Positions 15,680-39,775 of a DNA stretch of 64,000 nt are shown here, piece after piece. The stretch's first letter is position 1. Every line of letters starts with the position of its first letter. The notes below the pieces were generated by a model. It worked only from the letters and a program-made list of their open reading frames with translations. It did not search any database and was not told where the DNA came from. A program made the position numbers and the translations under genes. The DNA is from Naegleria gruberi. Taxonomy: Eukaryota. Location: assembly GCA_000004985.1 (NCBI GenBank), contig GG738863.1; one strand, given 5' to 3'.

Positions 15680-16909
15680 CTAATAAGTTTGTTTAATTTT
15701 TTTTTCAATCTTTTTTTTACGAATCTTTTCTCGTTCTTCTTCCTTTTTCTTTTTGGAAAATACCACTTCTCCCTTTTTAGTCAAGTTTTTCTTTTCCTCT
15801 TCATTTGCTTGTTTTTCAGATTGTGATGAAATATTGTATTGATTCATGTACATTGGCGTCTTGACAGTCACCAAGAAACAAGGTAAAATAAACTTTTCTT
15901 CCTTAATAACCAGGACATTTCCATGATTCTTCGTATTGACTGTATCAGATAAAAGAACTGCACATGCAAATAATTGATTTCCTCCTCCACAATATCCAAC
16001 ACTAATTCTAGGATCCATTACAGTAACATAAATTCCAACTCCCAATGCACTTCCATTAATAACTGATAGATTATTATTCTTTCCTGGAACGAGGAGTCCA
16101 TTTTCTATAATGCTCTCGATATTGTGTGGGGAAGTTCCATGAAAACAGAGAAAGATACGATCAGTGACTGATTTCCCTATACGTTGCTCTTCTGAAATAA
16201 TTGCTTTTGTGAAACGATTCAATAAATCATTCTTGATAATACATTTGATATCTGAAACTGGATAACTACTCTTGAATCTGTTAGTGATAATCTCATTATA
16301 ATTGGCCCAAAATGAGATTGGATGATGAAATACTTTAGAAATTGGAACTGGCTTTCTACTAACTGATGGATCTTCTTTGAGTTTCTTTTCCTTCTTGAGA
16401 CGATTCTTCTTTGATAAACCAGCTGAAATACTAATTGTTTGATTAGAAGCAGATGGAATTGGAAACTCCCTCAGATTTGGATTCAAATGTTCATCCCAAC
16501 TCCAATTCATCATATTTTCCAAATAAATTTCATTCAGGAATGGCAAATCCTCAACTCTAACCTGAACTTCTTCCTCGACATCCAAATTTTCAAGTGCAGA
16601 ATCGTCAATTTCAATTTCAATTTCCTCATCAGAGGCAAACTCATCATATTCTACATTTTCATCATCCTCATCATTATTTTCATCATTATTTTCATCATGA
16701 ACCACAACACACTGATCATTGTCATGATTATTATCGGACAATGTAACATTCATCATTTCTATTAATTCCTCTCGGGTTGTTCCCATCTCTAGTAAATCCT
16801 CTTCACTGAGACACATAATCTCCTCGAGAGTTAAATTCACATTGCCTTCCTCTTCTTCTTGATTTAAAGACAATTCTGCAACAGATTCAGCTAGCTCCTC
16901 ATCAAGCAT
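15680..16909 (-). CDS. PARP-like ADP-ribosyltransferase with a C-terminal PARP catalytic fold, an acidic N-terminal region and a K/E-rich tail.
   Basis: LCFHGTSPHNIESIIENGLLVPG (the H-G-S/T NAD-binding element) followed by GSALGVGIYVTVM...VGYC (the G.G.Y element of PARP catalytic domains). Acidic stretch DENNDENNDEDDENVEYDE. Confidence 0.6.
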   Translation of the reverse strand: MLDEELAESVAELSLNQEEEEGNVNLTLEEIMCLSEEDLLEMGTTREELIEMMNVTLSDNNHDNDQCVVVHDENNDENNDEDDENVEYDEFASDEEIEIEIDDSALENLDVEEEVQVRVEDLPFLNEIYLENMMNWSWDEHLNPNLREFPIPSASNQTISISAGLSKKNRLKKEKKLKEDPSVSRKPVPISKVFHHPISFWANYNEIITNRFKSSYPVSDIKCIIKNDLLNRFTKAIISEEQRIGKSVTDRIFLCFHGTSPHNIESIIENGLLVPGKNNNLSVINGSALGVGIYVTVMDPRISVGYCGGGNQLFACAVLLSDTVNTKNHGNVLVIKEEKFILPCFLVTVKTPMYMNQYNISSQSEKQANEEEKKNLTKKGEVVFSKKKKEEEREKIRKKKIEKKIKQTY

Positions 16910-23058: not shown

Positions 23059-24315
23059 TTAAGCAATGAAAATTGACAATGTTGAGAACAATAGTAAATA
23101 AAAGATTATTGTCGGGGAAAGATGTTGTGAGCTAGAGCCACTAATGGTCTTGCTACTCGATTTGTAAACGTATGGTGTTGAAGAAGTTGGACCCACATTC
23201 TGATAGACAGGAGTGGAATATCCTCCAGTTGCAAGTAAAATCAACTCACCTGCTGTTCCACAATGAAATGGATATGCAAGATTTGATGCATTGGCAGCTG
23301 ACCAAATTGAACTGACAGCATCTGAAACATCCAATCCACATGAAATGAGAGCGTATCCACAAGGAGTCATTTCATAATTAACATTCATTAATGTTGGTAA
23401 GTAATCTTTAGCATTGGGATATTTCCAATTCGGGTGATATTTCAGAAATGTGGAGCAGAGAGCATTTGTGGATTTGTTTAATGGAAAGTTGAAAGCAGCT
23501 GGCCACAATTGAGAAGCTGCATCTGGATATAATATAGTCCAATTTGATGGAGTAACAACATCTGAATCGCCTAAACCATAATTATAATTAAAATTGGATG
23601 TGCTCCACATGTATTGATTGACCAACTCAATCATTCCACTTGCAGCAGAGGAACAAGTATTGGCAAGTGATGTATCATTGATTACTTTAGCAAGATATTC
23701 ACAACTTTTGAATCCCGCATAGACCTCAGATTGATCCATTAAATACTTGATGTGATAATTTGGTTTAGCCCAAGTCAACCCATTTTGCATGGTTGACTGC
23801 ATGGCCTTTACACTATTTCTTACTCCTGGCATGATTTGATTGGTTGTATAGTTTTTATCGACAGCATAAACTGAAGCCACAGCCATAATAAATAATGCAG
23901 CATATGAATCAGTACTATCCATATCATTGGTAGAACTCCAAGCAAATGCTGAACTAGCTCTTGTGTAATCTGTGATATAACCAGTTGAGTTGCTCTGATG
24001 TGAAACAAACCATCGAAACCAATTCCAAGCATAGACAGATGCAGTGGTAGTTCCAGTTGTGGACATGGCTCTAGCCAAGCCAAGAATTGCAAAATTCGAA
24101 TGATATGTATTCACATCTACTTTATCTTTCCACACGGAAAGTGAACCATCAGGAGAGGTGCAGTCAATGATGAATTGTTGCAATTGTTGAATCATTTTCA
24201 TATCCAATGATGAAGAGGAGCTTGTTGTCAGGTCAATGTTGGATAAAAAACAAAGGACAAAAGCAACAAGGAAAAGAATAGAGAGACGAGATCTGGAGTG
24301 GGATGATTTTCGCAT
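23059..24315 (-). CDS. Secreted or GPI-anchored protein of unknown function, 418 aa.
   Basis: N-terminal signal peptide (RLSILFLVAFVLCFLSNIDL), Ser-rich regions and a hydrophobic C-terminal tail (IIFYLLLFSTLSIFIA) preceded by small residues. No family recognised. Confidence 0.4.
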   Translation of the reverse strand: MRKSSHSRSRLSILFLVAFVLCFLSNIDLTTSSSSSLDMKMIQQLQQFIIDCTSPDGSLSVWKDKVDVNTYHSNFAILGLARAMSTTGTTTASVYAWNWFRWFVSHQSNSTGYITDYTRASSAFAWSSTNDMDSTDSYAALFIMAVASVYAVDKNYTTNQIMPGVRNSVKAMQSTMQNGLTWAKPNYHIKYLMDQSEVYAGFKSCEYLAKVINDTSLANTCSSAASGMIELVNQYMWSTSNFNYNYGLGDSDVVTPSNWTILYPDAASQLWPAAFNFPLNKSTNALCSTFLKYHPNWKYPNAKDYLPTLMNVNYEMTPCGYALISCGLDVSDAVSSIWSAANASNLAYPFHCGTAGELILLATGGYSTPVYQNVGPTSSTPYVYKSSSKTISGSSSQHLSPTIIFYLLLFSTLSIFIA

Positions 24316-24505: not shown

Positions 24506-25692
24506 TTATTGAGATAAAGTTCCATCATTGTTGTTGGTATTAGTAGAATCAGAGTTTGAAACAACAGGTTGGTTGTGATGATTTGGAGGAAGTACAAAGA
24601 CAGTAATTGTAATATTTGTTCCTTCAAAACATGATTCAATAACTTGTTTCATCTCAGCCCAATCCAACTTGTTACCTCCACATCCAATTCTTGGCATTGA
24701 AATTCTTTCAATTCCATTTCTTTGAAGGAGTTTTCTGGCATGATTGAGAACTTGCTTGTAATTGTTATAGTTGGCCTTGTCAGTTTTCTTTTGTTTTGTT
24801 AAGAGGAATCTGGTTGTCAAAGAAATAGCCATGAATATTATTGTGAATTGTATAATACTTACAGAATTTCCTTTCCATGTTTGGAATCATAACATAAAAT
24901 ACATGGTTGATTGGTCAATTGGTTAAGTGTACCAATGTGTGGGAAATAATCCATACATTGCTTGGCAATACCATAATTAGTGCTCAAATCAGCACTTATT
25001 CCAATACAGATTGGATCAGTATTACTGCTATCAAACAAATCACCTTCCTTTTCAATTAATTTAAATCCAAAACCCTTGTCTTTGAGTTCTTTCACCTCAG
25101 TTTCATATCTAATCTTATCTTGTTCATATAATTGCTCATAAACCATCAATTCATCAGTTGATAGAGCATTAAATCTATTACTCAATTCGTGTTGAATCTT
25201 TTTAAAATTATCAGAAATATCTTGTTTTGTTTTACCTTGAGATAGTTGACCATTTTGAGATAATTCACTTCTCACAATAGCATAATTTCTCTTTACAAAT
25301 TGAACACGTGGAGTGAGTGGTTTCTTTGGAGTTTTAATAATATTAGCCTCTCTCACCTCTTGATCTAATAATCTTCTCTTCAATTCCTTGATTTTAGTTT
25401 GTGAATTATTTTGCAAAGTTTCCAATTTGGCCTTCATCAATTCTTCAAGTTGTTGTTTCTTTCTTTCGTATAAATTATTTTGAGTGGCTTGATATTTCTC
25501 CAATCGAGTAATATTGGATGGCTTGGCAAGTTGAGGAATAATCACTTGTGGATCCGAAGTAGTAGACGAAACAGCTGCATTAGAATTTGTGTGGGTATTA
25601 TTCGAAATTAATTGACGATGAAATGAACGAGAAATTGATGAGGATTTTTGCAAGAAATCTCTAGAAAGGAAACGAGAGGTCTTGTTGAGCAT
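24506..25692 (-). CDS. TARG1/OARD1-like macrodomain protein (terminal ADP-ribose glycohydrolase family) with an N-terminal extension of about 230 aa. Two exons: 24863-25692 and 24506-24809.
   Basis: [41 protein letters not shown] matches human OARD1 [39 protein letters not shown]. Upstream, EGDLFDSSNTDPICIGISADLSTNYGIAKQ matches [30 protein letters not shown]. A 53-nt intron (GTAAGTATTATAC...CAACCAG) joins ...HGKEIL|FLLTKQKK. Confidence 0.7.
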
Positions 25693-25965: not shown

Positions 25966-26550
25966 TTGAAAAACACAGTTCATTATTCAAATATAATAAA
26001 AATGCACAATATAAACACCGCAAACATGATGAAATCCTCAATTTCGAATAGAGAAAAGGAAGCAGCAACAGTGGAAACTATTCTCAGTAGTGGCAATAGA
26101 TGTGATACTTTAGGTCATGAATTAGGTAAAGAAAATTCAGAATTTGAAAGGAAACCTCCCTCTCCAAGGATTAATTATAAGAAATACGTCCTACCTTTCT
26201 ATCCGAATATGAATTTAGGTGGTCCCAGCAATCCTTCGACAGTTTCTAATGAATTATTTCGACAATATTCGACAGATGTTCTTAATAATCAGGATGAAAC
26301 AATTGAGGAAGCTGAGGATAAATTAGATTCGTATGAACCTGCCTCAAACTCTTCACTCTTTACAATAGTTGGAATGGAAATGCTTGAGAATGGTTTTACA
26401 TCACTGTGGCAAGATTTAAGCATTCTGGCCACACAAGTTAGAGCTGGTCATTTAACCATTGATTCGTATAGAGCTATCCTAAAGCTTTCGTTGGTTTTAA
26501 TTATTTTTCTCCTATTGTTTGTATTCATTTCGAGTGCCTTTGTTGAATAG
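25966..26550 (+). CDS. Hypothetical protein with a C-terminal hydrophobic (tail-anchor-like) segment. It ends at a single in-frame TAG immediately followed by the next long ORF.
   Basis: ORF of 194 aa. C-terminus LKLSLVLIIFLLLFVFISSAFVE*. Same reading frame as 26551..30591. Confidence 0.3.
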   Translation: MKNTVHYSNIIKMHNINTANMMKSSISNREKEAATVETILSSGNRCDTLGHELGKENSEFERKPPSPRINYKKYVLPFYPNMNLGGPSNPSTVSNELFRQYSTDVLNNQDETIEEAEDKLDSYEPASNSSLFTIVGMEMLENGFTSLWQDLSILATQVRAGHLTIDSYRAILKLSLVLIIFLLLFVFISSAFVE

Positions 26551-26631
26551 TTGCACGACTCCAATAAACAACTTTCCCGCCAAAAAATACTACAATCTCA
26601 AACTCTAACTTTGAAAAAAATATCTCGACTA

Positions 26632-29600
26632 ATGAGTTGGAAATACTACGGAGTGGTTTTTCTCATGTTGATCGCGTTTTTATTCTTGATTGGTGTTTTG
26701 GGAAGTGGAAATTTGTTGTTTGTGGAAGGAAATGAAAGGATAAAGAAATTTGAAAGGATTATTTGTCCTGAATCGAAGAGTTTGGTCTATTCATTTAAAT
26801 CAATTACCTTGGTTGGTAATAAGATTCAATCAAAAAGTGTTTCTGGAAGTGGCCAATTGGAAAATGTTTTCAGTGGAAAAGTTGTCTTATCATGTCAACA
26901 GGAAATGAATCATGATTGGAGGAATATTATCGTTGTCAGCTTCTCAGAGTCGATATTTGAACAATTTCATGGAAGAGGTTTAAATAAGAGATATAGGAAA
27001 ATGATTTCTAGAGCTGATCTTACGAAAGAGTTGAATGAATTTCCAATGATAATCATTCAATCTTTTTCAGGGCATATTTTCAAATTGATATTTAATAAGA
27101 GGGAGACAGCTTACATCAAAACAATGAAAAAAGGAATATTAAGATTGTTGACAACTGACACCAAAAAAGATGCCAGGCATCAAACAGATGGATTTGGAGG
27201 GAAATATTTCCAAGAGTACAAGAAGAGTTTAATATCCAAAAAGCCAGAGTTTTTGACAGTTTATCAAGAATTTTCCAGCAAGGACTTTTACAAAATTCCT
27301 ATTTCAAAACGAAGAATCAATTACCAAGCTAAACATTTAGTTACTGTTGATATTCAACACCACTGGATACATCACGCTTCAATGTTGATCAGCCTAAGCC
27401 ATCAACAAACGAAAAACTCTAATATTTTCAAAGAATTTGAGAATATTTCAAAGAGGGAGTCTGTTCAATCCTCACTTAAATCGTCAGATAATGTTGAATC
27501 TGGACTATACTCCACAATCAAGCTTAACAAGATTGTCAACATATCGATTGCTTCATCTATAGAAAACTTTAACGATCTTATTAGATCAATGTTGAACAAT
27601 ACAAGGTCTCAGAATGACTGGATGTTCGAAAATACATTTTCATCAAAGAAATTGGACAAAAGATATTTCTCCCTGTTAAACAGGAGGAAATTTTCAACGA
27701 TTCACTTTCAAAAACTTCTTTCATTGCTCAAAGGAGATCCTTCACTCCAGCACAACACAACAAGATTGGTAGGAATTGTTTCAAACTATAAAAAGTTGGA
27801 CACTATTCAATCAGCAAGGATATTATTGAATCATCTCGTTGAAGGCTTGCACAAGCTCAACAAGCTAACCGGAGCCGAATATCTCTCAACCAAAACCTAT
27901 TTGGAAATCATTCAACAATTAGTTGCAACGACAAGAAACGAAAATATCCAAAATGATCTTATAGCTATATCATCAATAGAGCCAGTTCTTGCAAACAATT
28001 ACATCTACTCATCCATTAATATTCAAAGACCTAGCTCAAATGTTTATTCATTTATTAAACATTTAAAAAACCATGGATTGAAGTTTATATCACATAACAT
28101 TACATCTGAATCAAATTCAAATGTAAAAAGAAACGCTTACCTAGCATTTGCAGACCTTGCACATAGACTGCAAGATAAGACTCTTAAAGATACTATTGTA
28201 AGAGAAATTTTGGACAGTATAGAAAATGCAGAATCGAAAGAAGACATCGAGACCCACTTTCATGCTCTAAACAATGCCGGTGAAGCAGTAGATCCCTATC
28301 TGTTATACGCAATATGGGCTTCTGACAAGATTCCAGAATATTTCAAAATTCTATTAACAAAGAATATAAGAAAGAGGATAAAAGATGACCCAACCTTAGA
28401 TAGAATTATTCTTAAGATTTTGAGGAGTGAGGATGAAAATTTCTCTCCAAATTTAAAATCAAACTTGATTGAATCCCAGGGAGAAAGAGAGTATATATTG
28501 AATACATGGTCGTTGGTGAAACCATTAGCAAGAATTTACAAAGTTGTGAGAGATGAGGGCATCAAGAGTACAATACGAAAGTACATGTACAATGCAGGAA
28601 CTGATAATTCAGCAAAATATCTTTCAAAGATGCTAAACAAGAAACAGAGGCATAATAGGAAAATCAAAGGCAATGATTATAGAAAGTTTGGGCTCTCCAA
28701 TGAAGATTTGGATATTTTGAATCAAGTTGAAACAAGGAATGCCTTATTTATTGGCGGATTCATGAGAAGGATTCAAGACACCCTCTCGAAAGGAAAGGAA
28801 AAGATGACCCTCTTTGTAAACAAATCCCTCAAGGAAGGGATTCAAAAAGCATCTAATTGGGTTGAAACCAAAGCTGCAGGAGCTCTCTCCAAAATTACAA
28901 AACTTGTTGGAGATTTGAAATCCAAATTTGCTTCCCCAGCAACAATACGAGATGAGAAGGCTTGCATTCAAGTGAGTGAAAATATCAATGACACTGTTTG
29001 CTTCTACAATACTGACATGATTTCTTTCTTTCAAAAACAAGGAAATTTATCCAATATGAAATTCTCCAAACATTTTGAATTTGAAAAGATTGCTGGCCCA
29101 AAGGCTGTCAATCTCTATTGTGGAATGGCCATTTATAGTGGAGCCTCATTTGACTGCAATGCAGATAAGAGTTATTTTGATTTTGTTCTCATTGCAAGAG
29201 CAGCCTTTGAAGCAAGTGCTCTACAACGAAAGTTTTCACTATTAGAATTGAGTGCAGAGCTCACCAAAAGACCACATAAACCAGTTAGGGACAATATTTA
29301 TCTAAGAATTGCTCAGACAACATTTGTCAATACAGGTTTTGTTCCAGAGCAAGTGAAAAAGTTTATTTCCCTTTGTTTGAGTGAAACTAAACCAATATTT
29401 GAAAAGACGTTTCCAGTCATTGCAACGCATGAACAAATGGTAAATATAGGACCAGTACCATTGACTTTTCATATTTCACTCTCAATGCGTGTTGCAGTAG
29501 AGTTGGTTTATGGTCTGTGTGTTGAACGATTGGAAGCAGCCACGTCTTTGGAGCCATATGTATCAGTTTCATTGACTGGTGGAGCAGCTATTGGAATACC

Positions 29601-30591
29601 AGTAGCAAGAGCAGGGATGTATATTCGATCTACTCTCACATATCGACTTGTACCAAGATTGGCTTTTGAGAAGTGTAATATCTGTGCCAGCTTACAACAC
29701 AAGGTTGATAGCTTGGAATTTCAAATAGGGTTGAGTGCAAAAGTTTTAACTTTTGACAAGTATTGGAAATTCTATGGTAAAACAACAAGACCCTATATCA
29801 AAACAATCTTTGAAAAATGTATACCTCTATTTGGTTCACCTACTGTTTCCATTAAGAGCAAGGATACCACCTTTGATTTGAAGTCCAATGAGGAAACTGG
29901 AAGTAACTCTCAATCACTTTCAAATGAAGAATACTCAACTCAACAAGTTGATGTGAAAACCATCAACACAGAGGATGAAACCAATACCAAATCAAAAGAA
30001 TCAATCTCTTCATACAAACCCCTATTTGGGTCAAATCCAATGAAACTTCCAGAAATGAAGTTACCAACAGAGAGTAAGGAAAGTCTCAAACCTCCCCCAA
30101 CAGAACAGCCAGAATTGGAATGGAAATTAGAATTTCTATCTCAACAAGTGCCTCATAAAATCATACAAAGATTTGGATTGGAAAACTTGAGAAGACTTCC
30201 CTCAAATTATTTCCAATTGACTGAAGAAGAAAGAGAAAATATTCCCTATGAAGTTTACTACCTCCCAAAGAGTGACTTTTCCAATTTCATATCTAAATTC
30301 AGTCCCACAAGCATGTTAAGGAACTCGGCAATATCACCTCTCTCGTTTGAAAGATTATGGAGAAGAGAAGTATTGGAAGGGAGATTCCCAATTCAAGTGT
30401 TGAAACAAATTCCCTTAAAAGATTTGAGAAGTCTCCCAGAACCAATCATTCGTTTAAGAAAAAGGATTTTGCAAGAAATTCCTCTCCAGCTCTTCAAAGA
30501 AGGATATCAACAAATTAAAAGTTGGATATGCTCAAAGTACTACCACTTATGTAATGAGCTTGACACCTTGATAGTGATGAGAAGTGAATAA
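26632..30591 (+). CDS. Large secreted or type-II membrane protein of about 1320 aa. Weak resemblance to the helical domain of large lipid transfer proteins (vitellogenin/apoB/MTP).
   Basis: ATG at about 26632 gives MSWKYYGVVFLMLIAFLFLIGVLGSG (signal or anchor). An internal ALNNAG motif (HFHALNNAGEAVDPYLLYAIW) is reminiscent of the conserved ALGNAG of LLTP helical domains. Otherwise unrecognised. Confidence 0.4.
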   Translation: MSWKYYGVVFLMLIAFLFLIGVLGSGNLLFVEGNERIKKFERIICPESKSLVYSFKSITLVGNKIQSKSVSGSGQLENVFSGKVVLSCQQEMNHDWRNIIVVSFSESIFEQFHGRGLNKRYRKMISRADLTKELNEFPMIIIQSFSGHIFKLIFNKRETAYIKTMKKGILRLLTTDTKKDARHQTDGFGGKYFQEYKKSLISKKPEFLTVYQEFSSKDFYKIPISKRRINYQAKHLVTVDIQHHWIHHASMLISLSHQQTKNSNIFKEFENISKRESVQSSLKSSDNVESGLYSTIKLNKIVNISIASSIENFNDLIRSMLNNTRSQNDWMFENTFSSKKLDKRYFSLLNRRKFSTIHFQKLLSLLKGDPSLQHNTTRLVGIVSNYKKLDTIQSARILLNHLVEGLHKLNKLTGAEYLSTKTYLEIIQQLVATTRNENIQNDLIAISSIEPVLANNYIYSSINIQRPSSNVYSFIKHLKNHGLKFISHNITSESNSNVKRNAYLAFADLAHRLQDKTLKDTIVREILDSIENAESKEDIETHFHALNNAGEAVDPYLLYAIWASDKIPEYFKILLTKNIRKRIKDDPTLDRIILKILRSEDENFSPNLKSNLIESQGEREYILNTWSLVKPLARIYKVVRDEGIKSTIRKYMYNAGTDNSAKYLSKMLNKKQRHNRKIKGNDYRKFGLSNEDLDILNQVETRNALFIGGFMRRIQDTLSKGKEKMTLFVNKSLKEGIQKASNWVETKAAGALSKITKLVGDLKSKFASPATIRDEKACIQVSENINDTVCFYNTDMISFFQKQGNLSNMKFSKHFEFEKIAGPKAVNLYCGMAIYSGASFDCNADKSYFDFVLIARAAFEASALQRKFSLLELSAELTKRPHKPVRDNIYLRIAQTTFVNTGFVPEQVKKFISLCLSETKPIFEKTFPVIATHEQMVNIGPVPLTFHISLSMRVAVELVYGLCVERLEAATSLEPYVSVSLTGGAAIGIPVARAGMYIRSTLTYRLVPRLAFEKCNICASLQHKVDSLEFQIGLSAKVLTFDKYWKFYGKTTRPYIKTIFEKCIPLFGSPTVSIKSKDTTFDLKSNEETGSNSQSLSNEEYSTQQVDVKTINTEDETNTKSKESISSYKPLFGSNPMKLPEMKLPTESKESLKPPPTEQPELEWKLEFLSQQVPHKIIQRFGLENLRRLPSNYFQLTEEERENIPYEVYYLPKSDFSNFISKFSPTSMLRNSAISPLSFERLWRREVLEGRFPIQVLKQIPLKDLRSLPEPIIRLRKRILQEIPLQLFKEGYQQIKSWICSKYYHLCNELDTLIVMRSE

Positions 30592-30731: not shown

Positions 30732-31982
30732 TTAGAGCTTTCTCTTTTCCTTCAAAGCTTGGAGTTTCTTTTCATCTTCCAATCTCTTTTGTTCCAATTG
30801 CTTCTTTCTTGGACCTAAGAACTTGTTCTTTTCGGTAGTGGTTTGGAATTTACCCTTACCAACCTTGGAGGTAGTATCGATAAACTTCAAGACAATTTCT
30901 TCCTTCATGTCTCTGCCCCACTTGTGTTCTGGAACCAAAGTCTTTCTCAAAGTGACAACTCTTCTTGGTGGACCTTGAACGTTACCCTTGACCATAACCC
31001 AGTCGTTTTCAACAACACCATAGTTAACAAAACCACCCATTGGGTTGACATCCTTTTCAGTCAAATCGAAATCAGTCATTGCGGACTTCTTTCCTTCTTC
31101 AGTCTTGTTGGACTTTCCGATTCTGTAGATCTTCTTATTTTGGTGGACTCTGTGGAAGAAACCCTTTTGACCAGCTCTGGCAACAGAGAAGGAAACTCTA
31201 GCTGGATGCCAAGCGCCAATACAGGCAACCTTTCTCAAACCTCTGTGGGTCTTTCTTGGCAATCTTCTAACACCCCATCTGGAAACGACACCCTTAGTAC
31301 CCTTACCCTTGGAGACGGCAATAACGTCGATTGGTTCATCCTTAGCGAAGACAGAGTCAACAGAGACGAGCTTTTCGAGGTTAGCAACAGCGAACTTGAT
31401 CTTTTCATCAACAGTACCACCGTTAACTTGGATTTCAGCAACGTGAGCCTTCTTGTTGTTAGTGGCAGTAACCTTGCTTGGTTGAGTGTGAGCAACAATT
31501 CTGATAACATCAGCGTTCTTCTTGAATGATTCCAAAGCTTGAGTTCTCTTTTCTTGAGCAGCTTGTTCCAAGTAAGTCTTGGTGAGCTTAGTGAAAGCTC
31601 TCTTCTTGGATCTACACCAATCCTTATAGTAAACTCTTCTGAATTCATTGCTGATATTCTTAGCCCAGACAGTACCGATGGCCTTCAAACCAGTTGGGGT
31701 TTGCTTATAACCAACAACACCGACAACAACCATTGGTGGAGCTTCAATGATGGTGACAGCATCGAGACCTTCCTTCTTGTGCATCTTAGAACCTGGCTTG
31801 TTAACTTCACGGACAATGTGGGTCATACCAGCCTTGTAACCAAGGAAAGCAGTCAAATGAGTAGCCTTCTTTTGGTCATCCTTTGGGAAAGCCTTAACTC
31901 TACCTCTTTCTCTTCTAGCCTTCTTTCTTGGCAAGAAACCAAGAGAACCGTGTCTTGGTGCTTCAAACTTTCTGTGAGACAT
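30732..31982 (-). CDS. RPL3: 60S ribosomal protein L3 (uL3).
   Basis: [22 protein letters not shown]...[35 protein letters not shown]...; 416 aa, intronless. Classical uL3 sequence including the W255/H256-region motif. Confidence 0.95.
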
Positions 31983-38338: not shown

Positions 38339-39775
38339 TTACTTCTTTCTTTGTAATTCTTGTCTGAGATAGTCTATAAAGTAGGCTTTTGAGTTGATGG
38401 CTCTGTATTCGTGATAGGTACTCATGATATAATAAAGCTCACTAATGGTTATCTTTGAAGAAATAATAGATTCTAATACTTCTGTCAAATCCTTAATACA
38501 TTGTTCATCCTTAAATGTTGAGTAGTAAACAGATTTTCCAGTAACTTTGGCAGCACATAATTGTTGGACAAATTTCAAAACAAAGTCTCCACCGAATTGC
38601 CCACATCCCCATCTTCCTGAGGTAATTTCTTTCTCAGGTACATTTTTGAATCCCAAGTAGGCCTTGTTGAGGTCACGTTTGATCATTTCAGGTTGGAAGT
38701 GCTTTCTAGATATGGCATCCATAATAATAATATCAACAGTATGTCCAAGAGGTTCGTATAAACCTGTAAATTCAAAAGTATTGAGATAGCCCTTATATTC
38801 GCTATATCTGACCATACCTCTCATGGTCATAATTTCTGTATCACTCAAAGATTCACAAATGAGGAGAGTGAGGAAAGATTCTGGGCAACAACTGAAAAGG
38901 ATTTCTTCTTGAGTGAGTGATGGAATAATTGAACCAATGTGAATGAAACGATTGGCAAAATCAACAAATCCACGACACAAAATATCCTCCATTCTTCCAT
39001 CATGAAGCTTGATAATAGACTTGGCTTCTTCTGCATTAGAAAAATCGATGTCCTTCATTTCAGCCCAATTTGGTTCCTCCTCTACTGTCAAGTTGTGACG
39101 AGTAAAAACAATATCCTCTCTATCTATGCACAATTGTTGTTCATGATTAGCTTGTTGATAAAAGTAACTTAATTGACAAATAATTCTTTCAATAGATTCC
39201 TCCAAACGACATACATAAAGTCTATTGAAATCCAAAACTCCAAAATCTCTCTCCCTATCTTTTTGCATAAAATTGTGTATTTCCGAAGAAATGTTCAAGA
39301 AGAAGGCATTTGCTAAAATGCAACGAACATCCTTTGGTTTGACAGTGAATGAACCTTGTTGATGCATCTCAATGAGTGGTAATCTTTCGATCAATTCGCT
39401 CTCTGTTGCTTCGAGAGCATATTGAGCAATCTTTGGAAGCAAGTGTTGGTAAAAATCAAATTCCTTATGTTCTTCGCCTCTTCCACGAATATATTCTTCA
39501 AAACTTTCAATGGCAACTTCAAGACCTGGGAACCCGAATCTTCTCTTTGAAGCATCGGTCTGGAATAAGTGAAGAATATCTTGAAGCTCTTCATATTCTT
39601 CAATTTCTTCTATTCCTTCCAGGATGGCTCTCGTAATCTCGGTTCCCTTTATAAAGAAACGATGACGAGTAGGCTCATGAACATGAATTTGAAACAACTT
39701 TTCAGCAGAGGCAGTCTTGTGAAGAATTGGTGAAAGAGGAACCTGATCAATGATATTATTATTGTTTGGAATCAT
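38339..39775 (-). CDS. PARG: Poly(ADP-ribose) glycohydrolase (PARG).
   Basis: Canonical catalytic signature IGSIIPSLTQEEILFSCCPE (PARG GGG-X-QEE loop region), RYSEYKGY, RDLNKAYLGF and SGRWGCGQFGGDFVLKFVQQLCAA, closely matching vertebrate PARG ([38 protein letters not shown]). Confidence 0.9.
   Translation of the reverse strand: MIPNNNNIIDQVPLSPILHKTASAEKLFQIHVHEPTRHRFFIKGTEITRAILEGIEEIEEYEELQDILHLFQTDASKRRFGFPGLEVAIESFEEYIRGRGEEHKEFDFYQHLLPKIAQYALEATESELIERLPLIEMHQQGSFTVKPKDVRCILANAFFLNISSEIHNFMQKDRERDFGVLDFNRLYVCRLEESIERIICQLSYFYQQANHEQQLCIDREDIVFTRHNLTVEEEPNWAEMKDIDFSNAEEAKSIIKLHDGRMEDILCRGFVDFANRFIHIGSIIPSLTQEEILFSCCPESFLTLLICESLSDTEIMTMRGMVRYSEYKGYLNTFEFTGLYEPLGHTVDIIIMDAISRKHFQPEMIKRDLNKAYLGFKNVPEKEITSGRWGCGQFGGDFVLKFVQQLCAAKVTGKSVYYSTFKDEQCIKDLTEVLESIISSKITISELYYIMSTYHEYRAINSKAYFIDYLRQELQRKK

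What the first reader, a model, noticed from the sequence alone, without database searches (positions are those of the whole stretch)
24506..25692. TARG1/OARD1-like macrodomain fused to a long N-terminal extension with a presequence-like start
Animal TARG1 is a bare macrodomain of about 150 aa. Here the macrodomain is the C-terminal third of a protein of about 370 aa. Its N-terminal about 230 aa begin MLNKTSRFLSRDFLQKSSSISRSFHRQL, which is basic, hydroxylated and lacks acidic residues like a mitochondrial targeting peptide. A coiled-coil/charged region follows (KKQQLEELMKAKLETLQNNSQTKIKELKRRLLDQEVREA). This suggests an organelle-targeted or scaffold-tethered terminal ADP-ribose or O-acetyl-ADP-ribose hydrolase. 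The catalytic region conserves the MPRIGCG element.
Basis: partly seen in the sequence, partly recalled or inferred. Interest (0 to 1): 0.5.

Follow-up and report, generated by a model that had tools for sequence, protein, structure and literature searches.

The report
DNA-binding HMG box fused to TARG1 macrodomain
This is a real but apparently unannotated Naegleria gruberi gene that joins a DNA-binding HMG box to a TARG1-type ADP-ribose macrodomain keeping the catalytic lysine but not its partner aspartate, so it is probably a DNA-tethered ADP-ribose reader or eraser, not a plain TARG1 with a targeting peptide.

Summary
On the minus strand, two exons (25692-24863 and 24809-24506) are split by a 53-nt GT-AG intron and encode 377 aa. 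Residues about 208-352 form a TARG1/OARD1-type macrodomain (PDB phmmer E 8e-19; Foldseek TM 0.91 to 4J5S). That alignment runs across the splice junction, and two environmental relatives keep the same intron position and phase.

- **HMG box.** Residues about 120-206, next to the macrodomain, form an HMG box. A two-sequence profile hits only HMG boxes (NHP6A E 1e-6), and the AlphaFold fragment has pLDDT 92.
- **Missing Asp.** The "conserved" MPRIGCG loop lacks TARG1's catalytic Asp125. It is Asn here and Tyr in the relatives, against Asp in 52 of 56 homologues. Lys84 is kept. This Lys-only state is reported for bacterial DarG, a DNA-specific hydrolase.

The N-terminus is basic, Ser/Thr-rich and amphipathic, so it looks like a presequence. 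It does contain one Asp, and its conservation in relatives is equivocal. A coiled coil is not shown.

The gene seems to be missing from the GenBank N. gruberi annotation.

My best reading is a DNA- or chromatin-tethered ADP-ribose hydrolase or reader. It is a new variant of a known kind, of moderate interest.

The parts
24863..25692 (-). Exon 1: codons 1-276 plus 2 nt of codon 277, with the ATG at 25690-25692
   Evidence: ORF list and translation. An in-frame stop lies 23 codons upstream and there is no earlier ATG.
24810..24862 (-). Intron of 53 nt, GTAAGT...CCAG, phase 2
   Evidence: Removing it restores the frame. The TARG1 alignment is continuous across the junction. Introns sit at the same position and phase in L001 (43 nt) and L004 (42 nt).
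24506..24809 (-). Exon 2: last nt of codon 277 to codon 377, plus the TAA stop at 24506-24508
25603..25692 (-). Residues 1-30: basic, Ser/Thr-rich, amphipathic N-terminal segment that looks like a presequence. Function unproven.
   Evidence: Net charge +5, 9 Ser/Thr, one Asp (D12), maximum hydrophobic moment 0.75. It is the only one of 28 window ORFs with net charge of at least +5 and at least 8 Ser/Thr. AlphaFold predicts a helix at 5-30 with low confidence.
25342..25512 (-). Residues 61-117: one long charged alpha-helix. It could be a coiled coil or a spacer; this is not resolved.
   Evidence: AlphaFold helix 61-117; per-10-residue block means about 85-97 for 61-110, falling to 70 for 111-120. 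Heptad register is weak, 8 of 16.
25075..25335 (-). Residues about 120-206: HMG box, with three helices at 128-146, 156-175 and 179-205 and a lengthened helix 1-2 loop
   Evidence: A profile of the Naegleria sequence plus L001 alone against PDB gives only HMG boxes in the top 25 hits: NHP6A 1.1e-6, HMGB1 3e-6, TFAM 8e-4. The fragment model has pLDDT 92.4. The top 23 Foldseek hits are all HMG boxes. On its own the sequence is below the Pfam cut-off (14.9 bits against 25.4).
24863..25071 (-). Macrodomain, N-terminal part (residues 208-277): GDLF adenine-binding motif and loop 1
24584..24809 (-). Macrodomain, C-terminal part (residues 277-352): TK motif and the PRIGCGGN loop
24794..24796 (-). Codon for Lys282, equivalent to the catalytic Lys84 of TARG1 and Lys80 of DarG
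   Evidence: Lys in 56 of 56 aligned TARG1-like sequences. Also kept in L001 and L004.
24671..24673 (-). Codon AAC for Asn323, at the position of the catalytic Asp125 of TARG1
   Evidence: Asp in 52 of 56 homologues; Asn here; Tyr in L001 and L004. The same AAC codon is present in the independent contigs L002 and L003.
24509..24583 (-). Residues 353-377: low-complexity, Asn/Ser/Thr-rich, disordered tail
   Evidence: pLDDT 51-68. Two of the four non-synonymous differences to L002 lie here.

Best explanation
This is a two-exon protein-coding gene of Naegleria gruberi that appears to have no model in the GenBank annotation. Its 377-aa product has five parts: a basic amphipathic N-terminal segment, a long charged helix, a single HMG box, a TARG1-type (ALC1-like class) macrodomain, and a short disordered tail.

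**Shown.**
- The gene structure.
- The macro fold, with TARG1 as the nearest solved relative and DarG next.
- The HMG-box fold.
- Retention of the adenine-binding GDLF motif, the diphosphate-binding GIA and PxIGCG loops, and the catalytic Lys (K282).
- Loss of the Asp partner (N323).

**Inferred mechanism.**
- The HMG box docks the protein on DNA or chromatin, probably on bent or distorted DNA.
- This places the macrodomain next to ADP-ribosylated DNA or DNA-bound proteins.
- The macrodomain binds the ADP-ribose. With a Lys-only active site like DarG's, it may remove ADP-ribose from DNA or from nucleoid or chromatin proteins.

**Location.** Whether this happens in the nucleus or the mitochondrion is open.

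**My estimates.** Architecture about 0.95. DNA or chromatin tethering about 0.7. Catalytically active eraser rather than reader about 0.5. Mitochondrial location about 0.3.
For: **Gene and splice.**

**Macrodomain.**
- phmmer to human TARG1, E 7.8e-19 over residues 198-350.
- AlphaFold model with pLDDT 83 overall and mostly 91-97 per 10-residue block in the macrodomain, one block (251-260) at 73.
- Foldseek best hits are TARG1 4J5S (target TM 0.91, rmsd 1.7 A), then DarG 5M31, 5M3E and 5M3I.

**HMG box.**

**Active site.**
- K282 is invariant; the Asp column is N here and Y in relatives.
- DarG keeps only the Lys of the dyad and acts on DNA, not proteins (PMC9411070; PMC7050489; PMC5179494).
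- TARG1 itself removes ADP-ribose from DNA (PMC5725667; abstracts of PMC8501950 and PMC11102865).

**Context from relatives.**
- Among 132 TARG1-like representatives, fused domains are often DNA-repair or DNA-binding modules: LIG3 BRCT in 5, DNA ligase in 2, PNK3P in 2, UDG in 1, TatD in 1, NADAR in 1 and HMG box in 2.
- An independent HMG-box plus TARG1 protein exists in the foraminifer Nonionella stella (P0041: HMG_box E 1.2e-14, Macro E 6e-7).

**Selection.** 5 synonymous and 0 non-synonymous differences in the two domains against strain L002.

**Annotation gap.**
- The exact product and both single-exon ORFs are absent from the 15-billion-protein collection, while the flanking genes are present.
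- Minus-strand EFC numbers run 45445 (23059-24315) then 45446 (30732-31982), leaving no slot in between.
Against: **Catalysis.**
- No activity, binding or localisation data exist.
- Asn or Tyr at the Asp125 position may simply make the domain inactive, since TARG1 D125A is used as an inactive mutant.
- Other distal-ribose contacts drift within the clade. T83 is T, V and L; S35 is S, N and N; H32 and C33 become I/G and I/A. This fits loss of catalysis as well as a change of substrate.

**HMG box.**
- It is below Pfam's gathering score for this sequence alone.
- It has Arg where the canonical first aromatic residue sits.

**Expression.** No transcript evidence was available.

**Breadth.** Only two close relatives were found, both from one metagenome sample, so clade-level conclusions rest on few sequences.
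Confidence: 0.6

Rival explanations
1. Reader, not eraser. The macrodomain has lost catalysis (Asp125 to Asn or Tyr, and a drifting distal-ribose pocket) and only binds mono- or poly-ADP-ribose. It would recruit an HMG-box architectural protein to ADP-ribosylated chromatin, as the non-catalytic ALC1 macrodomain recruits a remodeller.
For: - The Asp column is N, Y and Y in the three clade members, against Asp in 52 of 56 homologues.
- TARG1 D125A is used as an inactive mutant on DNA-end ADP-ribose (PMC5725667).
- T83 and S35 equivalents are not conserved in L001 and L004.
- The adenine and diphosphate contacts (GDLF, GIA, PxIGCG) are intact.
Against: - The catalytic Lys is kept in all three clade members, although neighbouring positions vary.
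- DarG shows that a Lys-only ALC1-like macrodomain can be a fully active hydrolase.
Confidence: 0.3
2. Mitochondrial nucleoid protein. The N-terminal segment is a cleavable presequence, and the HMG box binds mtDNA as in TFAM or Abf2. The macrodomain would then service ADP-ribosylation in the mitochondrial nucleoid. This concerns location and can be combined with either the eraser or the reader reading.
For: - Residues 1-30 have net charge +5, 9 Ser/Thr and a strongly amphipathic predicted helix (muH 0.75, hydrophobic stripe L2-L9-F13-I20-F24-L28). This is unique among 28 window ORFs.
- R22-S-F-H resembles an R-3 MPP cleavage site (my own knowledge of the motif).
- L001 has an in-frame upstream ATG that would give a similarly basic, acid-free peptide containing R-P-F-H.
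- TFAM and Abf2p are among the HMG-box sequence and fold hits.
Against: - No trained predictor could be run.
- D12 lies within the segment.
- In L004, the sister contig of L001, the same upstream ATG is out of frame because of a 4-nt deletion. Both relatives share a conserved Met further downstream, so the peptide may not be coding in them.
- TFAM and Abf2 have two HMG boxes; this protein has one.
- The best HMG matches are nuclear NHP6A and HMGB1, not TFAM.
Confidence: 0.3
3. One reading: a canonical TARG1-like terminal ADP-ribose or O-acetyl-ADP-ribose hydrolase acting on protein Glu/Asp-ADP-ribose, held by a coiled-coil scaffold or sent to an organelle. DNA plays no special role.
For: TARG1 is the nearest solved homologue. 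A long helix and a presequence-like N-terminus are present.
Against: - The published TARG1-like pattern TKx(30,35)Px[IL]GxGxD (PMC6397177) fails at the final Asp.
- The domain next to the macrodomain is an HMG box.
- The heptad periodicity of the helix is weak.
Confidence: 0.12
4. Not one gene. Exon 1 would be an independent HMG-box ORF and exon 2 a macrodomain remnant or pseudogene, or the two would be separate transcripts.
For: Prokaryote-style gene callers split the locus into 277-aa and 108-aa ORFs. No GenBank model exists.
Against: - The macro fold needs both exons. Strands and helices 211-276 lie in exon 1 and 277-349 in exon 2.
- The intron position and phase are conserved in relatives that are about 35% identical.
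- Differences within the domains against strain L002 are synonymous only.
Confidence: 0.03

Closest known systems
Human TARG1/OARD1 (C6orf130), ALC1-like class macrodomain hydrolase (PDB 4J5S, 4J5R, 4J5Q)
   Same: - It is the best sequence match (E 7.8e-19, about 31% identity) and the best fold match (TM 0.91, rmsd 1.7 A).
- The GDLF motif, the T-K motif (T281-K282 for T83-K84) and the P-R-I-G-C-G loop are conserved.
   Different: - TARG1 is a bare domain of 152 aa, and ALC1-like hydrolases are described as minimal, without extensions (PMC7050489). Here 207 aa precede the domain, including an HMG box.
- The catalytic Asp125 is Asn.
- H32, C33, L124 and P91 are also replaced.
Bacterial DarG macrodomain, the antitoxin of DarTG (PDB 5M31, 5M3E, 5M3I)
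   Same: - It is the second-best fold match (TM about 0.80).
- It has a Lys-only active site: Lys kept and no Asp partner.
- It acts on ADP-ribosylated DNA. Here a DNA link is implied by the fused HMG box.
   Different: - Only 17-18% identity.
- DarG is encoded in an operon with the DarT toxin and carries a different C-terminal domain.
- No DarT-like gene was seen next to this gene.
- The substrate here is unknown.
Nonionella stella (foraminifer) protein EP01083_P163458 (P0041), HMG box plus TARG1 macrodomain
   Same: It has the same two-domain order, HMG box then TARG1-type macrodomain. The combination therefore recurs in another eukaryotic supergroup.
   Different: - It has a canonical HMG box (E 1.2e-14) and a canonical GCGLD loop with Asp.
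- It has a linker of about 40 aa in place of direct abutment.
- It lacks the long helix and the presequence-like start.
- It is probably an independent fusion.
HMGB/NHP6A-type and TFAM/Abf2-type HMG-box proteins
   Same: A three-helix HMG-box fold, a PKKPL N-terminal strand motif, and conserved aromatic residues (F132, F174, Y185, Y196).
   Different: - A single box with a helix 1-2 loop about 12-14 residues longer.
- Arg replaces the first canonical aromatic residue.
- It is fused to an enzyme-like domain.
- TFAM and Abf2 have two boxes.

Membership tests
TARG1/OARD1-type (ALC1-like class) macrodomain | Macro fold whose nearest relatives by sequence and structure are TARG1 | tested here: met
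   phmmer E 7.8e-19 to TARG1 chains. Foldseek ranks 1-8 are all TARG1, with target TM 0.80-0.91.
TARG1/OARD1-type (ALC1-like class) macrodomain | Published TARG1-like pattern TKx(30,35)Px[IL]GxGxD, covering catalytic Lys84 and Asp125 (PMC6397177) | tested here: not met
   T281-K282, 33 residues, then P316-R-I-G-C-G-G all fit. The last position is N323 rather than D. L001 and L004 have Y there.
TARG1/OARD1-type (ALC1-like class) macrodomain | Minimal stand-alone domain of about 150 aa without extensions | tested here: not met
   377 aa, with 207 aa N-terminal to the domain. The criterion comes from PMC7050489.
TARG1/OARD1-type (ALC1-like class) macrodomain | Hydrolysis of Glu/Asp-linked mono-ADP-ribose or O-acetyl-ADP-ribose | not testable with these tools
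   This needs a biochemical assay.
DarG-type DNA ADP-ribosylglycohydrolase | Lys-only active site: Lys equivalent to TARG1 K84 kept, Asp partner absent | tested here: met
   K282 is kept and N323 replaces Asp. The DarG property is taken from PMC9411070 and PMC7050489. I did not align a DarG sequence residue by residue.
DarG-type DNA ADP-ribosylglycohydrolase | Encoded next to a DarT ADP-ribosyltransferase toxin | tested here: not met
   The flanking genes are a predicted protein with no Pfam family match (23059-24315) and a large ORF of unknown function (25966-30591). The nearest ART-fold gene is a PARP-domain protein 8 kb away.
HMG box (Pfam PF00505) | Sequence match to the family profile | tested here: inconclusive
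   The single sequence is below the Pfam cut-off (14.9 bits against 25.4, E 0.038), as is the L001 relative (19.2 bits). A profile of only these two sequences finds HMG boxes alone in PDB, down to E 1.1e-6.
HMG box (Pfam PF00505) | Three-helix L-shaped fold | tested here: met
   AlphaFold fragment pLDDT 92.4, with helices at fragment residues 12-30, 40-59 and 63-89. The top 23 Foldseek PDB hits are all HMG boxes, with probability up to 1.00 and target TM up to 0.84; their E-values are weak (0.075 or above) for this short domain.
HMG box (Pfam PF00505) | Binds DNA | not testable with these tools
   The segment has net charge +4 and pI 9.4. EMSA is needed.
Mitochondrial matrix-targeting presequence | Positively charged, hydroxylated, acid-poor N-terminus forming an amphipathic helix | tested here: met
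   Net charge +5, 9 Ser/Thr, one Asp (D12), muH 0.75. Predicted helix at 5-30.
Mitochondrial matrix-targeting presequence | Positive call by a trained predictor (TargetP, MitoFates) and an MPP cleavage site | not testable with these tools
   No such tool was available. R22-S-F-H resembles an R-3 site, which I judged by eye only.
Mitochondrial matrix-targeting presequence | The targeting segment is conserved in orthologues | tested here: inconclusive
   L001 has an in-frame upstream ATG giving MLRSTTSWHQKLPKITQKFLTRPFH.... In L004 the same ATG is out of frame because of a 4-nt deletion.

The most novel reading that the evidence does not exclude
The protein is a eukaryotic functional analogue of DarG: a Lys-only TARG1-like glycohydrolase held on DNA by its own HMG box, possibly in the mitochondrial nucleoid. 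It would remove base- or phosphate-linked ADP-ribose from DNA. This would imply that Naegleria has endogenous, regulated DNA ADP-ribosylation. Its writer might be one of Naegleria's many PARP-like enzymes; one of these lies 8 kb away, and a PARG lies 13 kb away.
Probability: 0.15. Interest if true: 0.75.

Novelty: new variant of a known kind. Interest (0 to 1): 0.42.

Why it matters
TARG1-class macrodomains are described as minimal stand-alone enzymes with a Lys/Asp dyad. Only recently have they been linked to reversal of DNA ADP-ribosylation, through DarG in bacteria and TARG1 at telomeres or against DarT.

A natural protein that wires such a macrodomain directly to an HMG box, and that has the DarG-like Lys-only active site, would be a ready-made test case. 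It could show whether loss of the Asp goes with DNA-directed rather than protein-directed activity, a question the field states is open (PMC7050489).

It would also show that free-living protists carry ADP-ribose erasers or readers committed to DNA or chromatin.

On the practical side, it adds a missing gene to the N. gruberi reference annotation. Surveys based on annotated proteomes would therefore not have included this TARG1-type gene.

Tried and rejected
- **Word-indexed homologue search.** The full protein found only one distant macro protein. It did not even return the 97%-identical P0012, so its silence says little about whether an annotation exists. Repeating it with the two-sequence alignment added only P0176/L004.
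- **Metagenome scan.** The three-sequence alignment gave only two HMG-box-only contigs (L005, L006) and no further orthologues.
- **AlphaFold-database fold search.** The afdb50 library is not installed. I could not look for the same architecture there, or for a UniProt entry for this gene.
- **Presequence conservation.** I first took the L001 upstream ATG as proof that the presequence is conserved. I withdrew this after L004 showed a frameshift there.
- **Coiled coil.** Simple heptad scoring was weak, so I dropped the claim.
- **Synteny.** L001 shares no neighbouring genes with the window.
- **PARP-like neighbour.** It has no PDB relative by phmmer.
- **Literature.** The primary TARG1 mechanism paper (Sharifi 2013, PMC3642678) is not held. 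I relied on later papers and reviews that cite it.
- **Tandem copies.** The window holds no second copy of the gene or its domains.
Full report
**Where we are.** The window is nuclear DNA of Naegleria gruberi strain NEG-M. It is about 33% G+C. Ribosomal protein L3 (30732-31982, minus) and several other ORFs are exact matches to EFC/XP_0026781xx records on a 467,654-bp scaffold.

**Observation.**
- On the minus strand an ORF starts at the ATG at 25690-25692. An in-frame stop lies 23 codons upstream and there is no earlier ATG. The ORF runs 277 codons to a TAA.
- That TAA sits inside a GTAAGT donor.
- Removing 24862-24810 (53 nt, GTAAGT...CCAG) joins the ORF in frame to a second ORF ending at 24506. 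The product is 377 aa.
- Three independent lines support the splice:
  - Human TARG1 aligns without a break across the junction: query 198-350 to chain 8-160, E 7.8e-19.
  - The predicted macro fold uses secondary-structure elements from both exons.
  - Two related environmental contigs (L001 and L004, about 35% protein identity) have 43-nt and 42-nt introns at exactly the same codon and phase.
- A near-identical environmental strain (L002, L003) differs at 10 coding positions. Inside the two folded domains there are 5 synonymous and 0 non-synonymous changes. The four replacements fall in the disordered N-terminal linker, at the domain boundary and in the C-terminal tail.
- The feature is therefore real and under purifying selection.

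**The macrodomain.**
- Pfam's generic Macro model matches only weakly (18 bits). The family-specific evidence is strong.
- All five distinct TARG1/OARD1 PDB sequences match at E about 1e-18.
- The AlphaFold model has mean pLDDT 83 and mostly 91-97 per 10-residue block in the domain, with one block (251-260) at 73.
- With Foldseek it superposes best on TARG1 (4J5S: target TM 0.91, rmsd 1.7 A). Next come the DarG macrodomains of Thermus aquaticus and Mycobacterium tuberculosis (TM about 0.80), then yeast Poa1p and viral macrodomains.
- A whole-library phmmer search found 1336 relatives at E up to 0.001.

**The active site.**
- I aligned the protein with 55 TARG1-like sequences.
- The Lys equivalent to TARG1 Lys84 (K282 here) is present in 56 of 56 sequences.
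- The Asp equivalent to TARG1 Asp125 is present in 52 of 56. The Naegleria protein has Asn (GCGGN against GCGLD).
- L001 and L004 have Tyr at this position.
- The AAC codon is the same in the independent contigs L002 and L003, so it is not a sequencing error.
- The published TARG1-like pattern TKx(30,35)Px[IL]GxGxD (PMC6397177) is matched everywhere except the final Asp.
- The literature bears on this in three ways:
  - Lys84 attacks C1'' and Asp125 resolves the lysyl-ADP-ribose intermediate.
  - Mutating residue 125 gives a covalent intermediate in vitro (PMC7050489), and D125A is used as an inactive control on ADP-ribosylated DNA ends (PMC5725667).
[quoted passage not shown] It is nevertheless an efficient hydrolase of thymidine-linked ADP-ribose on ssDNA and, unlike SCO6735 and TARG1, is not active on proteins (PMC9411070; PMC5179494).
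- The Naegleria protein thus has a TARG1-like sequence with a DarG-like catalytic configuration.
- The adenine-binding GDLF and the diphosphate-binding GIA and PxIGCG loops are intact, so ADP-ribose binding is likely.
- Other distal-ribose contacts drift within the small clade. T83 is T, V and L; S35 is S, N and N. This is equally compatible with loss of catalysis.

- Residues about 120-206 (PKKPLTPRVQF...RFNALSTDELMVYEQLYEQDKIRYETEVKEL) give sub-threshold HMG_box hits as a single sequence: Pfam E 0.038 and HMGB1 E 0.017.
- The L001 relative matches the whole 69-position Pfam model (E 0.0017).
- A profile built only from the Naegleria and L001 segments retrieves nothing but HMG boxes in its top 25 PDB hits: NHP6A 1.1e-6, NHP1 1.3e-6, HMGB1 3e-6, TFAM 8e-4.
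- AlphaFold predicts three helices with pLDDT 92.
- The 23 best Foldseek hits for the isolated fragment are all HMG boxes: HMGB3, HMGB1 box A, TFAM, Abf2p and UBF. Probabilities reach 1.00 and target TM reaches 0.84. E-values are weak, as expected for a short helical domain.
- The helix 1-2 loop is about 12-14 residues longer than canonical. This explains the weak single-sequence scores.
- The segment is basic, with net charge +4 and pI 9.4.

**The rest of the extension.**
- Residues 61-117 are one long charged helix; per-10-residue pLDDT is about 85-97 for 61-110 and falls to 70 for 111-120. The best heptad register places hydrophobic residues at only 8 of 16 a/d positions, so I do not call it a coiled coil.
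They have a very high helical hydrophobic moment (0.75).
- Among 28 long ORFs in the window, no other N-terminus combines net charge of at least +5 with at least 8 Ser/Thr.
- This fits a mitochondrial presequence, but also a basic nuclear or nucleolar signal.
- Conservation does not settle the matter. In L001 an in-frame upstream ATG would add MLRSTTSWHQKLPKITQKFLTRPFH..., with R-P-F-H echoing R-S-F-H here. In the sister contig L004 a 4-nt deletion puts that ATG out of frame, and both relatives share a conserved Met further downstream.
- No trained targeting predictor was available.

**Is the architecture known?**
- ALC1-like hydrolases are described as minimal, without N- or C-terminal extensions (PMC7050489).
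- Full-text searches for TARG1 with HMG, for macrodomain with HMG box, and for Naegleria with TARG1 found no description of such a fusion.
- I ran a Pfam census of 132 representatives among the best 150 TARG1-like hits. This macrodomain type is repeatedly fused to DNA-repair or DNA-binding modules:
  - LIG3 BRCT in 5
  - ATP-dependent DNA ligase in 2
  - PNK3P in 2
  - UDG in 1
  - TatD DNase in 1
  - NADAR in 1
- HMG_box occurs in two. My local search with an HMG HMM found only P0014 and P0041, so the second member is most likely P0014, the L001 relative. The other is P0041, from the foraminifer Nonionella stella. P0041 has a canonical HMG box (E 1.2e-14), a canonical Asp and a different linker.
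- The HMG-TARG1 combination has therefore probably arisen at least twice. The Asp-less version was seen only in the Naegleria-like clade.

**Annotation status.**
- The spliced product, the 277-aa ORF and the 108-aa ORF are all absent from the 15-billion-sequence collection, while the neighbouring N. gruberi proteins are present.
- GenBank EFC numbers run positionally within each strand. On the minus strand they are 45441 (13641), 45442 (15680), 45445 (23059), 45446 (30732), 45448 (38339) and 45449 (42295). This leaves no number for a minus-strand gene between 24315 and 30732.
- The best whole-library hits to this protein are metagenome ORF fragments, not a Naegleria model.
- I conclude that the gene is very probably unannotated. 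The short intron interrupts the macrodomain, which may be why it was missed.

**Mechanism, stated with its limits.**
- Shown: a single polypeptide combining an HMG box with a TARG1-class macrodomain that has intact ADP-ribose-binding loops and the nucleophilic Lys, but no Asp partner.
- Inferred: the HMG box tethers the protein to DNA or chromatin, and the macrodomain recognises ADP-ribose on DNA or DNA-bound proteins.
- By analogy with DarG it may hydrolyse the linkage through K282. Alternatively it may only read the mark, or it may form a long-lived covalent intermediate like TARG1 mutated at residue 125.
- The cellular compartment (nucleus or mitochondrial nucleoid) is open.
- My estimates are: architecture about 0.95; DNA tethering about 0.7; active eraser about 0.5; mitochondrial about 0.3.

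**Verdict.** The finding is real and its core is correctly spotted. The interpretation needs revising to "HMG-box-tethered, Asp-less TARG1-like macrodomain". It is a new variant of a known kind and of moderate interest (0.42). The most novel reading is a eukaryotic, DNA-docked DarG analogue, which would imply endogenous DNA ADP-ribosylation in Naegleria. I give that about 0.15.

Noticed in passing
window 15680-16909 (-), 24506-25692 (-), 38339-39775 (-): Three ADP-ribose-signalling genes lie within about 24 kb on the same strand. They are a PARP-catalytic-domain protein (EFC45442; Pfam PARP E 9e-7), the HMG-TARG1 gene, and a canonical PARG (EFC45448; PARG_cat_C E 2e-42). N. gruberi has many such genes, including up to seven bacterial-type PARGs (PMC4245714), so the linkage may be chance.
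   Followed up: partly
window 15680-16909 (-): The PARP-like protein (409 aa) has a very acidic N-terminal half, a FHGTS...GVGIYVT core and a Lys/Glu-rich tail. It has no PDB relative by phmmer. Its third catalytic residue and its class (mono or poly) were not determined.
   Followed up: partly
window 25966-30591 (+): A 194-aa ORF and a 1346-aa ORF lie in the same frame, separated by a single stop at 26548-26550. This is probably one large gene with a short intron that contains the stop. The 1346-aa part has no Pfam family, and its product read from the first ATG is not in the collection.
   Followed up: no
L001 1-300 and L004 1-350: Two contigs from one ENA metagenome (ERZ27315067) carry about 93%-identical copies of the relative's locus, with the same upstream gene. 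L004 has a 47-nt duplication-like insertion after the upstream stop and a 4-nt deletion before the conserved ATG. They may be alleles, paralogues or two close species.
   Followed up: partly
proteins P0013, P0015, P0016, P0017: Several of the closest TARG1-like relatives carry two tandem TARG1-type macrodomains, in proteins of 311-982 aa. Seven of the 132 representatives have the macrodomain inside retroelement polyproteins containing RT, RNase H and integrase.
   Followed up: no
window 23059-24315 (-): The downstream neighbour (EFC45445, 418 aa) has a hydrophobic N-terminus after a basic start, a Ser-rich stretch and a hydrophobic C-terminus. It looks like a secreted or GPI-anchored surface protein. 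It has no Pfam family.
   Followed up: no
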